7,334 bases of DNA, from IMG/VR virus record IMGVR_UViG_2639762982_000003. The stretch is one strand, 5' to 3'. This document shows, in pieces, positions 1,970-7,164 of this stretch; the first letter of the stretch is position 1; the number at the start of each line of letters is the position of its first letter. Below the pieces are notes generated by a model. The model had not been told where the DNA came from. It searched no databases and saw nothing but the letters and a program-made list of their open reading frames with translations. The DNA comes from a virus. Its lineage: Duplodnaviria > Heunggongvirae > Uroviricota > Caudoviricetes. Position numbers and translations under genes: made by a program.

Positions 1970-2245
1970 TCACCTCAACAATGGAAAAATTCTTGCGACG
2001 TTCCCGCGTGCGCGTATTACCAGCACGCAGAACAGCAGATTAAAAAACACTTCCAGCCAGCCCGTTGCTAATGGGCGACCACACAGATAGCTGAGGGGCG
2101 CAAAGGCATACAGCAGCATCAGCAGCCAGGCCAGCCATGACATCAGCGGTTTATGTCTGGAATCACGGCGACGATAAAAAAAGAGCGTCAGCACGATAAC
2201 CGTGCATAACGCCACATTCAGCAATCCGGGAAGGTTACTTAACAT
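1970..2245 (-). CDS. holin-like membrane protein (second of two; holin or antiholin)
   Basis: 91-aa product starting at ATG 2243-2245 (internal Met of track ORF 1970..2299) with GGAGGAGG 6 nt upstream. Three hydrophobic segments (LLNVALCTVIVLTLFFY, LMSWLAWLLMLLYAFAPLSYL, WLEVFFNLLFCVLVI) and a basic C-terminus. Stop TGA 1970-1972 overlaps the endolysin GTG 1971-1973. Confidence 0.55.
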   Translation of the reverse strand: MLSNLPGLLNVALCTVIVLTLFFYRRRDSRHKPLMSWLAWLLMLLYAFAPLSYLCGRPLATGWLEVFFNLLFCVLVIRARGNVARIFPLLR

Positions 2246-2627
2246 TGCCGCCTCCTCCACCCCGCAGGCGGGAGAACAGGCCGGACACCAGCGATGCAAT
2301 ATCCTGCTGGTGGATGAACGACAGAATCTTCACCGACACCACTGACACCAGCACTGCACACAATGCGTCGACAGGCGCTCCGTCAAACCCTGTATGCTTT
2401 ACCAGCCAGGATGCCAGAACCTCTGCGCCCAGCACACCGATAATGAACGACACCAGAAAATGCGCCGCCACACGCCAGGCTGAAAGCGCCTGCGGCATCG
2501 TTGCCACAAATAACGCCCCGGCGAACGCACCAAACACAATCCCGAAATCCGTTCCGGTAAACAACCCGTACACCGTCGCCCCGCCGAGCGCCGCAGCCGT
2601 GCCGGAACCGGATAAGGGTTCAGACAT
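2235..2627 (-). CDS. holin-like membrane protein (first lysis gene)
   Basis: 130-aa product starting at ATG 2625-2627 (internal Met of track ORF 2235..2693) with AGGAGA 6 nt upstream. Three predicted TM segments and a charged C-terminus (RLRGGGGGNVK). Overlaps the start of the next gene by 11 nt. The track's 5' extension runs through a terminator hairpin and is rejected. Confidence 0.6.
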   Translation of the reverse strand: MSEPLSGSGTAAALGGATVYGLFTGTDFGIVFGAFAGALFVATMPQALSAWRVAAHFLVSFIIGVLGAEVLASWLVKHTGFDGAPVDALCAVLVSVVSVKILSFIHQQDIASLVSGLFSRLRGGGGGNVK

Positions 2628-2640
2628 ACTTTTTCTCCTG

Positions 2641-2667
2641 TAAATAAAAAAGGGCCACCAGCGGCCC
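2641..2667 (-). terminator. rho-independent terminator immediately upstream of the lysis cassette
   Basis: Hairpin GGGCC (2652-2656) / GGCCC (2663-2667) with a 6-nt loop; on the minus strand it is followed by TTTTTTATTT (complement of 2641-2651). The plus strand has no T-run after the hairpin. Confidence 0.55.
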
Positions 2668-2877
2668 GTAAAAAAACACCCCATCAAAGACACCCGCAGA
2701 TGCCTTTTATGTGGTGTTATCTGATGTGATGTGCGCCTGACGTGGCTCGGAGAAAATGAAATAAAGCTTATCTGAAATTAAGGTTAATCCGGGGATTTAA
2801 ACCATTTTTAAAGCTTAGTAATATCAAATCGTCTCCTGGAGGAGACTGATGCTTATTCTTCTTCACGGACTTTGTCC

Positions 2878-2909
2878 CGCGGCGTTAATCCGACAGCCGC
2901 GCTTTTTTT
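2878..2909 (+). terminator. candidate plus-strand rho-independent terminator (antisense to late transcription)
   Basis: 6-bp all-GC stem CGCGGC (2878-2883) / GCCGCG (2896-2901) with a 12-nt loop, followed by C plus TTTTTTT (2903-2909). Confidence 0.4.
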
Positions 2910-2990
2910 GCGCTCAGTTCATTATTAGCTTTCATGGCCTTGCCACACGGGTAATATCAATGCCCGTGTATTCTTTTCTGAGTTCAGAAT

Positions 2991-3017
2991 AAAAAAAACC
3001 GCCCGATAGAGGCGGTT
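2991..3017 (-). terminator. rho-independent terminator downstream of the tRNA array
   Basis: Stem AACCGCC (2997-3003) / GGCGGTT (3011-3017) with a 7-nt loop. On the minus strand the hairpin is followed by eight Ts (complement of the A-run 2991-2998). Confidence 0.6.
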
Positions 3018-3284
3018 AAGGATGCATTTCCAGGTTTTGCTTAATATATGATTAATCTCAATGTCATGGTGTTATTTACAACACCAGAATGATGCATCAT
3101 CGGCCCCTGCCAGAAACATTGCAAATCTCTACCAATAATGCACCATTCCGGTGACGTAAAAAATGGCACTGGTGCTGCAAGCGATATCACTCCTTACAGT
3201 ACAGGGCGAGGTAAGGAGTCAGGAAAAACGCCCCACATAAAATGTGTCAGTGCCTAACACAACCTAGTATCAATCGTCCTCTGC

Positions 3285-3359
<75 letters not shown>

Positions 3360-3362
3360 ATA

Positions 3363-3438
<76 letters not shown>

Positions 3439-3440
3439 AC

Positions 3441-3517
3441 TGGACCGCCACCGGGGACTCGAACCTCGCACACTCAACTTAAAGGGTTGACGCTCTTTCC
3501 TGATGAGCTAGTGGCGG
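3441..3517 (-). tRNA. tRNA-like gene, anticodon loop CCUUUAA (UUU, Lys, in canonical register); non-canonical, possibly a pseudo-tRNA
   Basis: 77-nt cloverleaf: acceptor CCGCCAC/GTGGCGG, U8 A9, D-stem GCTC/GAGC, perfect 5-bp anticodon stem TCAAC/GTTGA, T-loop TTCGAGT, encoded CCA. Position 33 is C rather than the near-universal U, and the T-stem has an A-C mismatch. Confidence 0.5.
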
Positions 3518-3518
3518 C

Positions 3519-3594
3519 TGGTGGCCCTTGCTGGATTTGAACCAGCGACCTGGCGATTATGAGTCGCTCGCTCTCACCACTGAGCTAAAGGGCC
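3519..3594 (-). tRNA. tRNA with anticodon CAU, ileX/ileZ-like (tRNA-Ile2 read as AUA after lysidine modification, or elongator Met)
   Basis: 76-nt cloverleaf: acceptor GGCCCTT/AAGGGCC, D-stem GCTC/GAGC, anticodon loop CUCAUAA (CAU), T-stem GCTGG/CCAGC, T-loop TTCAAAT, discriminator A, encoded CCA. Closely resembles E. coli ileX as recalled. Separated from the next tRNA by 1 nt. Confidence 0.75.
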
Positions 3595-3699: not shown

Positions 3700-3735
3700 A
3701 AAAAACCCGCTTGTGGGCGGGTTTTGTTTGCTTTT
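3700..3735. terminator. bidirectional rho-independent terminator, tR'-like for the minus-strand late transcript
   Basis: Hairpin CCCGC (3706-3710) / GCGGG (3717-3721) with a 6-nt loop, flanked by an A-run on one side (six Ts on the minus strand) and TTTTGTTTGCTTTT on the plus strand. Lies about 50 nt downstream of the predicted PR'-like start. Confidence 0.6.
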
Positions 3736-3776
3736 GCCATCACGTACAAAATCGGCAAAATATCAGATTTGCATGA

Positions 3777-3805
3777 AATATATGCCTTTCAATCTACTTT
3801 TGCAA
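3777..3805 (-). promoter_or_regulatory. candidate late promoter (PR'-like) overlapping the 3' end of the Q gene
   Basis: Minus-strand -35 TTGCAA (3805..3800), 17-nt spacer containing the Q stop codon, -10 TATATT (3782..3777). Predicted start near 3770; a -10-like TGaTATTTT element at about +6 to +14 resembles the sigma70-dependent pause element used for Q loading in lambdoid phages. Confidence 0.45.
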
Positions 3806-4478
3806 CACTTTGCTTTGAAAATGCCGCCTTTTGTTTTGAACGTGTTCTCATTACAAACAATAAAGCCTCACTATCAAGTCGGTGAAAAATGTGTTTCATT
3901 GCAACCCAGTGACGAGTAAATGTTTTGGACCAGTTTTTAGTTGTCACTCCCGCCAGTAATGCCAGCTCCTGGTATTCATAACCTTCCCCACCAAAAAGTT
4001 CTGCTTTTAATGCCTGCGCCGCCAGCCAGATTAATTTTTTCAGGCGTTCCTGCGTTTTCCCTGCAATTTTTCTGGTACCGGATTGAGTATTAAATTCATT
4101 CCACGCCCACTGTGTTATCGCGATCTGATATTCCCAACAAATACTCCCGCTGTAACACCACAACAACCAGGCTTTATGATGTTCTTCAAGAGACAGAACT
4201 GCCCGTCGCCATGATGATGTCGAAAACTCAACCTGACTTACCAGAGCAATTGATGAGCCTTTCGCCAGTGATTGTTTTCCCGGTATCGGTGGACTATCCC
4301 GCGTTATCATTCTTCCAGTCACTTCATCGCGGTACCGGATTTTTTTACGCCTGTAACGCCCTGTATCAAACATGGCATTCTCCTGCCAGGCTTCAAGCTG
4401 ACCTTTTGTTGCCCCACTCAAATCAGCGGTAGCGATAATGAGCTGCTCACGCACAAACTGTAAATACTGGTTATTCAT
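3789..4478 (-). CDS. putative late-gene antiterminator Q (Qin QuuQ/phage 82-like by position)
   Basis: 229-aa product from ATG 4476-4478 (track ORF starts 2 codons earlier at GTG) with GGAG upstream. Its ATG overlaps the rusA stop (ATGA). Sits immediately downstream of rusA and upstream of a PR'/tR'-like module, tRNAs and the lysis cassette, which is the canonical Q position. The family assignment rests on synteny; only two Cys are present. Confidence 0.6.
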   Translation of the reverse strand: MNNQYLQFVREQLIIATADLSGATKGQLEAWQENAMFDTGRYRRKKIRYRDEVTGRMITRDSPPIPGKQSLAKGSSIALVSQVEFSTSSWRRAVLSLEEHHKAWLLWCYSGSICWEYQIAITQWAWNEFNTQSGTRKIAGKTQERLKKLIWLAAQALKAELFGGEGYEYQELALLAGVTTKNWSKTFTRHWVAMKHIFHRLDSEALLFVMRTRSKQKAAFSKQSVAKVD

Positions 4479-4834
4479 GCGCACTCCAGTTCTGTGATTT
4501 TTATCCCCAGCCGACCACCAGGAACAGGCAGTCCGCGCACAATATTGATTTCATCAAACTGCTCGTCGTCTATGAGAAGTCCGGCATGCGTCAGCGCATC
4601 CAGTGGTGCCTTCAGGATATTGTCCAGGTCGCGGCGGCGCTTATCCGGTGGCTCTGCAATAATTTTTATTGCCAGCCTTCCGGACAGGTTTAATTTCAAC
4701 CGCTGCTGGCGAACAATTAGTGCCACATCACGGCGATAACGCTCACCGACTTTTGATACAAAATATGTGTTGCCACGACGTCGCCAGTAAGTATTCACCG
4801 TCGGCGGATAAGGCAAAACAAACTCTATACGCAT
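4475..4834 (-). CDS. rusA: crossover junction endodeoxyribonuclease RusA (Holliday junction resolvase)
   Basis: 119-aa ORF with ATG at 4832-4834 and AGAGG upstream. Protein aligns by eye with E. coli RusA, including the catalytic RRRDLDN motif and a GGRL C-terminal region. Confidence 0.85.
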   Translation of the reverse strand: MRIEFVLPYPPTVNTYWRRRGNTYFVSKVGERYRRDVALIVRQQRLKLNLSGRLAIKIIAEPPDKRRRDLDNILKAPLDALTHAGLLIDDEQFDEINIVRGLPVPGGRLGIKITELECA

Positions 4835-7008: not shown

Positions 7009-7164
7009 TTACTCCTCAGGTTCGTAAGCTGTGAAGACAGCGACCTCCGTCTGGCCGGTTCGGATTCGTACCTCGCAGAGGTCTTTCCTCGTTACCAGTA
7101 CCGTCACTATGACGGTTAAACAGATGACGATCAGGGCGATTAACATCGCCTTTTGCTGCTTCAT
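7009..7164 (-). CDS. hokD: Hok family type I toxin (HokD/RelF)
   Basis: 51-codon minus-strand ORF not in the track (below its length cutoff): ATG at 7162-7164, TAA at 7009-7011, AGGAGA 9 nt upstream. Translation MKQQKAMLIALIVICLTVIVTVLVTRKDLCEVRIRTGQTEVAVFTAYEPEE matches the Hok/Gef family and essentially E. coli HokD as recalled. Confidence 0.9.
   Translation of the reverse strand: MKQQKAMLIALIVICLTVIVTVLVTRKDLCEVRIRTGQTEVAVFTAYEPEE

What the first reader, a model, noticed from the sequence alone, without database searches (positions are those of the whole stretch)
2796..2909. Candidate antisense small transcription unit: promoter, perfect inverted repeat with embedded Shine-Dalgarno, ATG, and terminator
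On the plus strand a TTTAAA-N17-TAATAT promoter-like sequence (2796-2824) precedes the inverted repeat GTCTCC-TGGA-GGAGAC (2831-2846), which embeds GGAGGAG 5 nt before an ATG at 2849. An intrinsic terminator follows at 2878-2909. The ATG opens a 47-codon hydrophobic frame (2849..2992), but the terminator lies inside it, so the likely product is an RNA of about 80 nt, or an attenuated leader peptide, antisense to the late transcript just upstream of the holin. This could be an antisense regulator of lysis timing.
Basis: inference. Interest (0 to 1): 0.5.

Follow-up and report, generated by a model that had tools for sequence, protein, structure and literature searches.

The report
Prophage small-RNA gene upstream of holin
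The flagged stretch is most likely a self-contained gene for a ~79-nt regulatory small RNA in an E. coli prophage; it reads against the phage late operon just before the lysis genes and belongs to an apparently unnamed family of a kind of prophage RNA that is already well known.

Summary
The window is the late region of a lambdoid/phiP27-like E. coli prophage, read on the minus strand: Q, four tRNAs, a 650-bp gap with no annotated gene, two holins, an endolysin. The finding lies in that gap on the plus strand.

Comparison with 139 related copies from E. coli prophages shows a conserved block. It begins about 55 nt before the promoter-like hexamers and ends at the terminator's U-run.

Its parts are TTTAAA-N17-TAnnnT, a hairpin at the predicted 5' end, a 20-nt unpaired CU-rich stretch, a small hairpin, and a terminator with U7. 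Five base pairs keep pairing through changes on both sides.

The ATG at 2849 is ATA in 94 of 126 copies, so no peptide is conserved. Four to five different 5' halves share the same promoter and 3' module.

The element matches no Rfam family. It shows no similarity to AgvB, AsxR or PasA/C/D. PasA, however, occupies the same antisense slot before a holin.

Best reading: a new family of prophage, probably Hfq-type, trans-acting small RNA. A role in lysis timing is untested and not favoured. Expression has not been shown.

The parts
2776..2830 (+). Conserved promoter-like block. It holds an A/T-rich upstream part (AATTAAGGTTAAT), a -35-like TTTAAA (2796-2801), a 17-nt spacer, a -10-like TAATAT (2819-2824), and 6 nt up to the predicted start.
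   Evidence: Sequence. The block is conserved in all relatives. A TTTAAA-N17-TAnnnT arrangement is kept in every 5'-type: TAATAT, TAGTAT, TATGAT, TATACT (read). In one relative, homology breaks just upstream of AATTAAGG (u45). Not listed by the consensus scan because it matches only 8 of 12 positions. No transcription start data exist.
2831..2909 (+). Predicted primary transcript: a small RNA of about 79 nt.
   Evidence: Inferred from the -10 position and the U-run. A covariance model built from 24 variants scores 2831-2912 at 102.9 bits. Homology to distant prophages ends at 2909 in 5 of 12 loci.
2831..2846 (+). 5'-terminal hairpin GUCUCC-UGGA-GGAGAC.
   Evidence: I2. Three of its 6 pairs change on both sides among relatives, for example U-A to C-G in 8 of 24 sequences. 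97% of cells are paired. RNAalifold predicts it.
2847..2866 (+). Unpaired CU-rich stretch UGAUGCUUAUUCUUCUUCAC, the candidate seed for base pairing and U-rich Hfq contact.
   Evidence: Unpaired in the consensus structure. The core CUUAU..UUCUUCA is nearly invariant within the main type but is replaced wholesale in other types. In this window's variant it can also pair with GGAGGAGA of hairpin 1, giving an MFE of -25.3 against -23.8 kcal/mol for the three-hairpin fold.
2867..2877 (+). Small hairpin GGAC-UUU-GUCC.
   Evidence: It is almost invariant, partly because the retrieval patterns fixed it. BLAST-derived relatives show GGAU/GUCC (a G.U pair) and AGAC/GUCC.
2878..2909 (+). Intrinsic terminator: stem CGCGGC(G)/(A)GCCGCG, a 10-12-nt loop, then C and U7 (2903-2909).
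   Evidence: I12. Pair 53-66 is C-G in 18 sequences and U-A in 6. Pair 54-65 is U-A, C-G or unpaired. A further G-C to A-U change occurs in the L107 second copy. The T-run follows the stem on the plus strand only.
2936..2979 (+). Second, diverged 'small hairpin + terminator' module: GGCCUUGCC, ACACGGG..CCCGUGU, AUUCUUUUCU. It could be a back-up terminator or the end of a longer isoform.
   Evidence: One search lists a plus-strand terminator at 2945-2969. (I3). In other relatives the corresponding module is GGACNUUGUCC-CACGAG..CUCGUG-U7, a clear duplicate of the first. The model detects it weakly (L043 18.4 bits, L008 15.9 bits).
2989..3017 (-). Strong late-strand intrinsic terminator, AACCGCC..GGCGGUU plus U8. 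It converges on the small-RNA gene and probably ends tRNA-array transcripts in the lysogen.
   Evidence: 8 pairs, 5 of them G-C, tail TTTTTTATTC. Conserved in most relatives.
2642..2667 (-). Second late-strand terminator-like hairpin, GGGCCGCUGGUGGCCC plus a U-run, directly before the holin ribosome-binding site. It closes the slot on the other side.
   Evidence: Conserved in L002, L003 and L010.
2235..2627 (-). First holin gene of the lysis cassette (context).
   Evidence: Pfam Phage_holin_8, E = 2.8e-22. RefSeq annotation 'putative holin' in the identical genome.
3285..3594 (-). Array of four tRNA genes downstream of Q (context).
2849..2992 (+). 47-codon ORF, judged not to be a gene.
   Evidence: No Pfam match. 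The start codon is missing in 96 of 126 relatives and the C-terminal part is not conserved.

Best explanation
The interval holds a self-contained prophage gene for a trans-acting small RNA. A sigma-70-type promoter (TTTAAA-N17-TAATAT) would start transcription at about G2831. The transcript would end at the U7 run (2903-2909), giving about 79 nt.

The RNA has four parts. A 5'-terminal hairpin probably protects the 5' end. A 20-nt unpaired CU-rich stretch would act as the seed. A small hairpin and an intrinsic terminator with a U-tail follow. That layout, a U-rich stretch followed by a double hairpin and poly-U, is the one described for Hfq-binding modules.

In the lysogen the gene sits between two late-strand terminators, so it is not overlapped by sense transcription. 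The RNA would then be free to pair with host or phage RNAs elsewhere. After induction, Q-modified polymerase reads through the slot. That would occlude the promoter and produce a perfectly complementary late RNA, which would switch the sRNA off or use it up.

Shown here: conservation of the unit with sharp borders, covariation in two of the three hairpins, loss of the ORF, conserved synteny, and exchange of the 5' half between family members.

Inferred: transcription itself, the start site, Hfq dependence, action in trans, and the targets.
For: 1. Sharp borders. BLAST homology to distant prophages covers only window 2740/2754 to 2903-2915 and ends at 2909 in 5 of 12 loci. The element is 95.7% identical to L003, against 84.5% for the whole 651-bp gap.
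2. Structure. RNAalifold predicts three hairpins without guidance. On 24 distinct variants, 95.6% of cells pair and 5 pairs change on both sides (21 cells). None of 500 shuffles reaches this, and slid controls pair only 40-54%. A sixth compensatory change appears in L107.
3. Strand. The U-run follows the stem on the plus strand only. G.U pairs outnumber A.C combinations 14 to 5. The -35/-10 hexamers and the 17-nt spacing are kept in all 5'-types.
4. Not coding.
5. Modular family. There are 139 copies in 136 loci, with 4-5 unrelated 5' halves on the same promoter and 3' module. Three prophages carry two copies.
6. Synteny. 112 of 136 copies have a minus-strand tRNA within 1.2 kb of the 3' side. 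A holin or TerB marker lies 200-300 nt from the 5' side on the opposite strand in 87 of 89 copies with enough flank.
7. Precedent. PasA is an 85-nt sRNA validated by Northern blot. Its level falls in an hfq mutant under the activating growth condition, and it has RIL-seq partners. It lies antisense about 214 nt before a class II holin. AgvB and AsxR are also antisense sRNAs in the region after PR'.
Against: - There is no expression data of any kind.
- The promoter is weak by consensus (8 of 12) and is not reported by the scan.
- The folding z-score is the same on both strands, and the G.U bias rests on few independent events.
- The sequences are closely related, so the shuffle control overstates significance.
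- The retrieval patterns fixed hairpin 2 and the loop, so their invariance carries no information.
- The commonest relatives have an interrupted U-tract (CUACUUUU) at the first terminator. The transcript may be longer there.
- For this window's own variant the lowest-energy fold pairs the seed with GGAGGAGA.
- No convincing target was found in the window. The best non-self duplexes score -19.3 and -17.6 kcal/mol, and the holin ribosome-binding site is not among the 14 best-scoring duplex windows.
Confidence: 0.62

Rival explanations
1. A cis-antisense regulator of the late operon. The plus-strand RNA, or its convergent transcription, pairs with or collides with the late transcript upstream of the holin. 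It would set lysis timing through RNase III cleavage or transcriptional interference. This reading does not exclude the best explanation.
For: The RNA is fully complementary to the late transcript 204-282 nt before the holin start. Nearly all copies are convergent with the late operon and lie 200-300 nt from a holin or TerB gene. PasA and AsxR share this orientation.
Against: The distance to the holin, and what lies between, vary: TerB+DUF3927 in L002, a tRNA and STnc100 in L008. The L013-type paralogue keeps the promoter and 3' module next to an integrase, outside a late operon. Swapping of 5' halves is not expected for a pure cis-antisense RNA. The overlap does not reach the holin ribosome-binding site.
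Confidence: 0.15
2. No functional RNA product. The hairpins and T-runs would be insulators or terminators that stop stray plus-strand transcription. Alternatively they are structures within the minus-strand late RNA, such as a processing or stability element.
For: The hairpins can form on either strand with the same z-score. The gap is crowded with terminators on both strands.
Against: This does not explain the conserved -35/-10 pair with fixed spacing and fixed distance to hairpin 1, the nearly invariant unpaired 20-nt stretch, the G.U excess on the plus strand, or the retention of the whole unit beside an integrase.
Confidence: 0.1
3. Conservation reflects recent horizontal spread or a recombination 'linker' between phage modules, not selection on an RNA.
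For: Lambdoid phages are mosaics. Flank types change immediately after the U-run. The element is confined to Escherichia: outside E. coli, one other species representative, E. ruysiae.
Against: Identity runs from 78% to 100%, and substitutions are concentrated in loops or are compensated in stems. Mosaic joints fall at the gene's borders, as expected for a functional cassette.
Confidence: 0.08
4. A small protein or attenuating leader peptide starting at ATG 2849.
For: GGAGGAG lies 4 nt before an ATG, and a 47-codon ORF is open.
Against: The ATG is absent in 96 of 126 copies. The ORF length and tail depend on the flank. There is no Pfam match. GGAGGAG covaries as a stem arm.
Confidence: 0.02

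Closest known systems
PasA / PasC, prophage sRNAs of EPEC E2348/69 (Pearl Mizrahi et al. 2021, PMC8550237; Zhu, Shabalina and Storz 2026, bioRxiv 10.64898/2026.05.13.724894)
   Same: Same slot and orientation. PasA (85 nt) lies antisense between the moron gene and a class II holin, about 214 nt before the holin start. Both are 79-85 nt and end in an intrinsic terminator with a U-run. TerB, RusA and tRNAs are nearby. PasA and PasC were confirmed by Northern blot, have RIL-seq partners elsewhere in the genome, and fall in level in an hfq mutant under the activating growth condition.
   Different: No sequence similarity in the promoter, body or terminator (blastn, word size 7; best E = 0.17, a 10-nt match with one family variant) and no covariance-model hit. 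PasA has no 5'-terminal hairpin or second small hairpin, and its proposed seed overlaps the terminator stem.
AgvB / AsxR / EcOnc03 anti-sRNAs of EHEC (Tree et al. 2014, PMC4104026; Rfam RF02702, RF02703)
   Same: Encoded after the Q-dependent PR' region of lambdoid prophages and antisense to the late transcript. Family members share a conserved 3' part of about 42 nt and differ in the 5' part. The window element has a 43-nt conserved 3' module and exchangeable 5' halves.
   Different: No Rfam match in the window at E up to 1, although the same models score 96.5 and 88.1 bits on Sakai. The predicted length is 79 nt, not 51-60 nt. The window has no STnc100 partner. The window element lies before the TerB/DUF3927 position, whereas AgvB1 lies after it. 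Sponge (anti-sRNA) activity was not tested.
Generic Hfq-dependent enterobacterial sRNAs (module defined by Ishikawa et al. 2012, cited in PMC4104026)
   Same: A U-rich stretch, then a double hairpin, then a 3' poly-U tail. The conserved seed is unpaired and the gene has its own promoter.
   Different: Hfq binding is inferred from shape alone.

Membership tests
AgvB/AsxR anti-sRNA family (RF02702, RF02703) | Match to the family covariance models. | tested here: not met
   No hit in the window at E up to 1 or in four relatives. As a positive control, the models score 96.5 and 88.1 bits on Sakai Sp10 and Sp5. The model built here finds nothing in the Sakai loci beyond E = 2.2.
AgvB/AsxR anti-sRNA family (RF02702, RF02703) | Located after PR'/Q in a lambdoid prophage and antisense to the late transcript. 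| tested here: met
   Q at 3789-4478 (-), tRNAs at 3285-3594 (-), holin at 2235-2627 (-), element on the plus strand. The arrangement is conserved in relatives.
AgvB/AsxR anti-sRNA family (RF02702, RF02703) | Convergent pairing with an STnc100-type sense sRNA. | tested here: not met
   No STnc100 in the window. In L008, STnc100 is back to back with the element, not convergent. In Sakai, STnc100 abuts AsxR and AgvB.
AgvB/AsxR anti-sRNA family (RF02702, RF02703) | Length of 51-60 nt with a variable 14-18-nt 5' end that mimics a target of a core sRNA. | tested here: not met
   The predicted length is 79 nt and the variable 5' part is about 36 nt. Mimicry was not testable.
Pas sRNAs (PasA, PasB, PasC, PasD) | Sequence or structural homology to the E2348/69 genes. 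| tested here: not met
   PasA, PasC and PasD2 were extracted from NC_011601 and compared by blastn and by model R1, with no significant match. The PasB probe sequence is unrelated on reading.
Pas sRNAs (PasA, PasB, PasC, PasD) | Intergenic position in a lambdoid prophage next to the holin/lysozyme genes (PasA/PasC). | tested here: met
Hfq-dependent trans-acting sRNA (the general kind) | Intrinsic terminator with a 3' U-tail, preceded by one or more hairpins and a U-rich stretch. | tested here: met
   The U7 run is intact in the window. It is interrupted in the commonest relatives, which carry a second module with U7.
Hfq-dependent trans-acting sRNA (the general kind) | Own promoter and a discrete transcript. 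| tested here: inconclusive
   The TTTAAA-N17-TAnnnT arrangement is conserved at a fixed distance from hairpin 1, but it matches only 8 of 12 consensus positions. No RNA data exist.
Hfq-dependent trans-acting sRNA (the general kind) | Conserved unpaired seed. | tested here: met
   Columns 17-36 are unpaired in the consensus, with a nearly invariant core. Caveat: this window's variant has an alternative fold that sequesters the seed.
Hfq-dependent trans-acting sRNA (the general kind) | Binding to Hfq, lower stability in an hfq mutant, identifiable targets. | not testable with these tools
   Needs Hfq co-immunoprecipitation, RIL-seq and Northern blots.

The most novel reading that the evidence does not exclude
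E. coli prophages may carry an unrecognised sRNA 'cassette'. It would combine a fixed promoter with a fixed double-hairpin 3' module, and different phages would re-arm it with unrelated 5' seeds. At least 4-5 seed types exist, and some prophages carry two copies. The cassette sits in a slot insulated by two late-strand terminators. It would reprogramme host RNAs, or sponge host sRNAs, during lysogeny. Q-antiterminated late transcription would then silence or titrate it automatically at induction, tying host control to the lysogeny-lysis switch.
Probability: 0.25. Interest if true: 0.6.

Novelty: new member of a known kind. Interest (0 to 1): 0.4.

Why it matters
Prophage small RNAs in the region after Q, such as AgvB, AsxR and the Pas RNAs, rewire host regulation in pathogenic E. 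coli. The known examples come from EHEC and EPEC.

This element would add a family found in about 5% of complete E. coli genomes as a full-length copy. About 9% have at least the 3' module. Carriers include porcine ETEC, avian pathogenic strains and laboratory or industrial strains such as KO11FL.

Its natural series of seed swaps on a constant scaffold offers a ready-made experiment on how sRNA specificity evolves. It also flags 'hypothetical protein' annotations laid over this region in several RefSeq and phage records as probably spurious.

Tried and rejected
- Coding reading of ORF 2849-2992. Rejected.
- Rfam identity. None for the window or for four relatives.
- Identity with PasA, PasC or PasD2, AgvB or AsxR, EcOnc22 or EcOnc33 of Sakai, or the E2348C_2757 5'UTR sRNA. 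No similarity in any case.
- A short resemblance between the L010 flank and Sakai ('GGTGCCTCCCG'). blastn finds nothing.
- The holin ribosome-binding site as a trans target. By hand, 9 of 10 pairs form with GGAGAAAAAG, but the site is not among the 14 best-scoring duplex windows in the window. CU-rich seeds fit any strong Shine-Dalgarno sequence.
- The seed-sequestering alternative fold as the conserved structure. Only 79% of cells pair and one pair covaries. It appears in the MFE fold of only some of the 8 (of 24) variants that lack the 5' hairpin there.
- A promoter-anchored scan with a spacing error found nothing. The corrected scan returned essentially the same loci, so no other 3' module uses this promoter.
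- Literal sequence searches of 8 million papers, both strands and both DNA and RNA spelling, found no relevant paper; the only match was a coincidental one in an unrelated human transcription-factor paper.
- A chimeric stx2A+element query, used to ask whether O157:H7 carries the element. Several O157:H7 genomes show a single place, the toxin gene, so they lack it. Sakai itself was not resolved.

Full report
CONTEXT

The window is the late-control and lysis region of a lambdoid/phiP27-like prophage of E. coli. The 651 bases around the finding are 100% identical in seven complete genomes, among them porcine ETEC, bovine and one clinical isolate, and 99.4% identical in UMNK88.

On the minus strand the order is as follows (RefSeq annotation of the identical genome; Pfam; tRNAs):
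- hokD, then a DUF968 gene
- RusA (4475-4834)
- antiterminator Q (3789-4478)
- four tRNA genes (3594-3285)
- about 650 bp with no annotated gene
- a Phage_holin_8 gene (2627-2235)
- a second holin
- an M15 endolysin
- an HNH endonuclease and terminase

The finding lies in the unannotated gap, on the plus strand, and so is antisense to the late operon.

THE OBSERVATION

The hexamers are TTTAAA (2796-2801) and TAATAT (2819-2824), 17 nt apart. The perfect inverted repeat is at 2831-2846. GGAGGAG lies 4 nt before ATG 2849. The ORF has 47 codons. The stem is CGCGGC/GCCGCG (2878-2901), followed by C and T7 (2903-2909).

Taken alone these features are weak. The promoter matches 8 of 12 consensus positions and the terminator loop is 12 nt, so the simple scan lists neither. 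Both strands fold equally well, with z-scores of -2.5 and -2.4. Whether the feature is real therefore had to be settled by comparison.

COMPARATIVE EVIDENCE

A 161-nt query finds matches in 477 of 5426 complete E. coli genomes. In 297 of them the match covers at least 80% of the query, at 78-100% identity. Only two deposited phages carry it. A pattern scan of IMG/VR returned at least 120 prophage stretches. Among one genome per bacterial species, only Escherichia ruysiae has it.

Homology to distant prophages is confined to the element itself. BLAST blocks start at window 2740-2754 and end at 2903-2915. In five of twelve loci they end exactly at 2909, the last T of the run. Downstream of the run the flanks fall into unrelated types. 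In one relative the upstream homology breaks just before AATTAAGGTTAAT. So the conserved unit runs from about 55 nt before the predicted start to the terminator, which are the borders of a small gene.

STRUCTURE

RNAalifold on 24 distinct variants predicts three hairpins, at 2831-2846, 2867-2877 and 2878-2901, with 2847-2866 unpaired.

Pair counting gives 95.6% standard pairs. Five pairs change on both sides, in 21 cells. None of 500 shuffles reaches this, and slid controls pair only 40-54%.
- In hairpin 1, U-A becomes C-G in 8 sequences, and two other pairs also covary.
- In the terminator, C-G becomes U-A in 6 sequences, and the innermost pair is U-A or C-G.
- A second copy in locus L107 adds a G-C to A-U change.

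Three caveats apply. The sequences are related, so the shuffle figure is not a probability. My retrieval patterns fixed hairpin 2 and the loop, so their invariance says nothing. The covarying columns, however, were free to vary.

An alternative fold that pairs the CU-rich stretch with GGAGGAGA is 1.5 kcal/mol better for this window's own variant. Across the family it is poorly supported: 79% of cells pair and one pair covaries.

STRAND AND PROMOTER

The T-run follows the stem only on the plus strand. G.U pairs outnumber A.C combinations 14 to 5. This favours the plus strand, though only modestly, because few independent events are involved.

In every 5'-type of the family, TTTAAA is followed after 17 nt by a TAnnnT hexamer. 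The hexamers are TAATAT, TAGTAT, TATGAT and TATACT. Six nucleotides later a hairpin begins (read). This is what one expects if transcription starts at the first base of the hairpin. It is inference, not measurement.

NOT A PEPTIDE

The ATG is ATA in 94 and AGG in 2 of 126 main-type copies. Where an ATG is kept, the ORF runs 23-71 aa and its tail is dictated by the flank. There is no Pfam match. The 'Shine-Dalgarno' sequence is the 3' arm of hairpin 1 and covaries to GGGGGC.

A FAMILY WITH EXCHANGEABLE 5' HALVES

Across 136 loci there are 139 copies. They fall into these types:
- Main type, about 125 copies and more than 20 variants: CUUAU..UUCUUCA.
- L013 type, 10 copies: an unrelated 5' half (GGCUUUCAAAAAAGC..UUCAACAACUCUUGG).
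- L107b type, 3 copies: each is a second copy about 1 kb from a main-type copy in the same prophage.
- L043 type, 1 copy.

All share the promoter block and the 43-nt 3' module. A covariance model built from the main type finds them at 50-76 bits.

The L013 type lies between the host gene zinT and a phage integrase, 1-1.8 kb from the prophage end, and so not in a late operon.

SYNTENY

Of 136 copies, 112 have a minus-strand tRNA within 1.2 kb of the 3' side. Of 89 copies with enough flank on the 5' side, 87 have a holin or TerB marker on the opposite strand. The nearest marker lies mostly 200-300 nt from the 5' side. The P27 holin marker was accidentally translated out of frame, so it works only as a DNA-level marker.

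What lies between the element and the holin varies. It is nothing in the window, TerB plus DUF3927 in L002, and STnc100 plus a tRNA in L008.

THE SLOT

On the late strand, a promoter-like site (3632-3604) precedes the tRNA array. A strong terminator (3017-2997 plus U8) follows the array. Another terminator-like hairpin (2667-2652) sits just before the holin ribosome-binding site. The plus-strand unit lies between these two.

It also has a second, diverged 'small hairpin + terminator' module at 2936-2979. In many relatives that second module is an obvious duplicate of the first (GGACNUUGUCC-CACGAG..CUCGUG-U7), and there the first U-tract is broken to CUACUUUU. A longer RNA of about 145 nt is therefore likely in those phages. 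In this window the first terminator is intact.

MECHANISM (best reading, confidence 0.62)

In the lysogen the late strand is terminated on both sides. The promoter would make a 79-nt RNA whose 5' hairpin stabilises it. Its U-rich stretch, double hairpin and U-tail have the shape of an Hfq-binding module. Its 20-nt CU-rich stretch would pair with purine-rich sites in other RNAs. On induction, Q-modified polymerase reads through the slot, which should both occlude the promoter and supply a perfect complement.

None of these steps has been measured. No target was identified. Within the window only the antisense site stands out.

It fits poorly with the variable distance to the holin, the integrase-side paralogue and the seed swapping.

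COMPARISON WITH KNOWN SYSTEMS

The kind is well known. Tree et al. (PMC4104026) described antisense 'anti-sRNAs' (AgvB, AsxR, EcOnc03) after PR' in EHEC prophages, with conserved 3' parts and variable 5' parts. PasA of EPEC is an 85-nt sRNA confirmed by Northern blot, with RIL-seq partners, whose level falls in an hfq mutant under the activating condition (PMC8550237). It lies antisense about 214 nt before a class II holin, which is the same slot.

Membership in either family fails.
- No Rfam hit appears at E up to 1, although the AgvB and AsxR models score 96.5 and 88.1 bits on Sakai.
- PasA, PasC and PasD2 show no similarity by blastn or by the new model.
- Literal sequence searches of the paper library found nothing relevant.
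- Several O157:H7 genomes lack the element, so it was probably not in the EHEC data sets.

I therefore file it as a new family of a known kind. The qualification is that supplementary lists of sRNA candidates from other strains could not be searched exhaustively.

VERDICT

Interest is moderate at 0.4. A specialist would not be surprised by a prophage sRNA in this position. The family does appear to be unnamed, it is fairly common, and it offers a natural series of seed swaps.

Noticed in passing
window 3700-3805 (-): Directly after Q there is a promoter-like site (3805-3777, TTGCAA-N17-TATATT). Weak Rfam similarity to IsrK and IsrJ follows at 3700-3773 (E = 0.12-0.33, below the gathering score), then a two-way terminator hairpin at 3702-3725. 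This looks like the PR' promoter with its short leader RNA and tR' terminator.
   Followed up: no
window 2989-3093 (-): A conserved minus-strand stretch (about 3068-2990) ends in the strong terminator 3017-2997 plus U8 and has a weak CyaR hit (23.5 bits, E = 0.88). Upstream, a hairpin at about 3074-3093 keeps pairing in L003 through a G-to-A and C-to-U change. It could be a 3' trailer RNA of the tRNA array that converges on the plus-strand sRNA. RefSeq places 'hypothetical protein' ORFs across it in L002 and L003.
   Followed up: partly
window 2936-2979 (+); L010 2676-2728; L043 6954-7016; L008 2658-2718: The sRNA 3' module (small hairpin + terminator) is duplicated in tandem. In the commonest relatives the first U-tract is broken (CUACUUUU), the second module has U7, and a conserved 26-nt spacer (CACCCTCTCGCAAATTGCTATCTAAA) lies between them. 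That suggests a longer RNA of about 145 nt with two seeds, or a second processed sRNA.
   Followed up: partly
L013 2389-2560; L014, L054, L067, L075, L082, L084: A paralogue with the same promoter and 3' module but an unrelated 5' half (..AAAUUCAACAACUCUUGG..) lies between host zinT and a phage integrase, near the prophage end. About 180 complete E. coli genomes match only the 3' part of the query and probably carry this type. From memory, the CA-rich stretch resembles GcvB target sites. This was not tested.
   Followed up: partly
L107 6806-6891 and 7736-7817; also L068, L131: Three prophages carry two family members about 1 kb apart, one on each side of the TerB/DUF3927 genes, with different 5' halves. 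The second copy has a terminator stem rebuilt by several compensatory changes (AGCGACC/GGTCGCG).
   Followed up: partly
window about 2724-2727, compared with L002 2575-3260: Relatives carry a roughly 690-bp insert with TerB-family and DUF3927 genes (minus strand) between the sRNA unit and the holin. The window lacks it. The joint lies just after TTATGTGGTGTTAT.
   Followed up: partly
window 3519-3594 (-) and 3441-3517 (-): ARAGORN calls the first tRNA Met(CAT), whereas RefSeq calls it tRNA-Ile, presumably the lysidine type. The second, Lys(UUU), scores only 44 bits against the tRNA model and is replaced by tRNA-Arg in related prophages.
   Followed up: no
window 2785-2803 (+): The conserved arms GGTTAAT and TTTAAACC flank a 7-nt spacer that varies freely among relatives (CCGGGGA, CTGAGGA, TTGATGA, TTTGGTG). 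The second arm contains the -35 hexamer. This could be a protein-binding site controlling the sRNA promoter, or simply an UP element plus the -35.
   Followed up: no
window 2750-2765 (+): GGAGAAAATGAAATAA, a Shine-Dalgarno-like sequence followed by a two-codon mini-ORF. The core GAAATGAAATAAG is conserved upstream of most main-type copies. In L010 and the phage record ON470595 a 41-aa 'hypothetical protein' is annotated ending here. It overlaps the late-strand terminator and looks spurious.
   Followed up: partly
L008 2102-2304 (-); L134 1923-2128; L135 1928-2120: STnc100 (RF02076) lies back to back with the element in L008, 270 bp away. In Sakai Sp5 and Sp10 its 3' end abuts AsxR and AgvB. 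EcOnc27 of Tree et al. falls inside the STnc100 match.
   Followed up: partly
window 7009-7164 (-): A Hok-family type I toxin ORF, annotated hokD in the identical genome. The Rfam scan reported no Sok antisense RNA at E up to 1.
   Followed up: no
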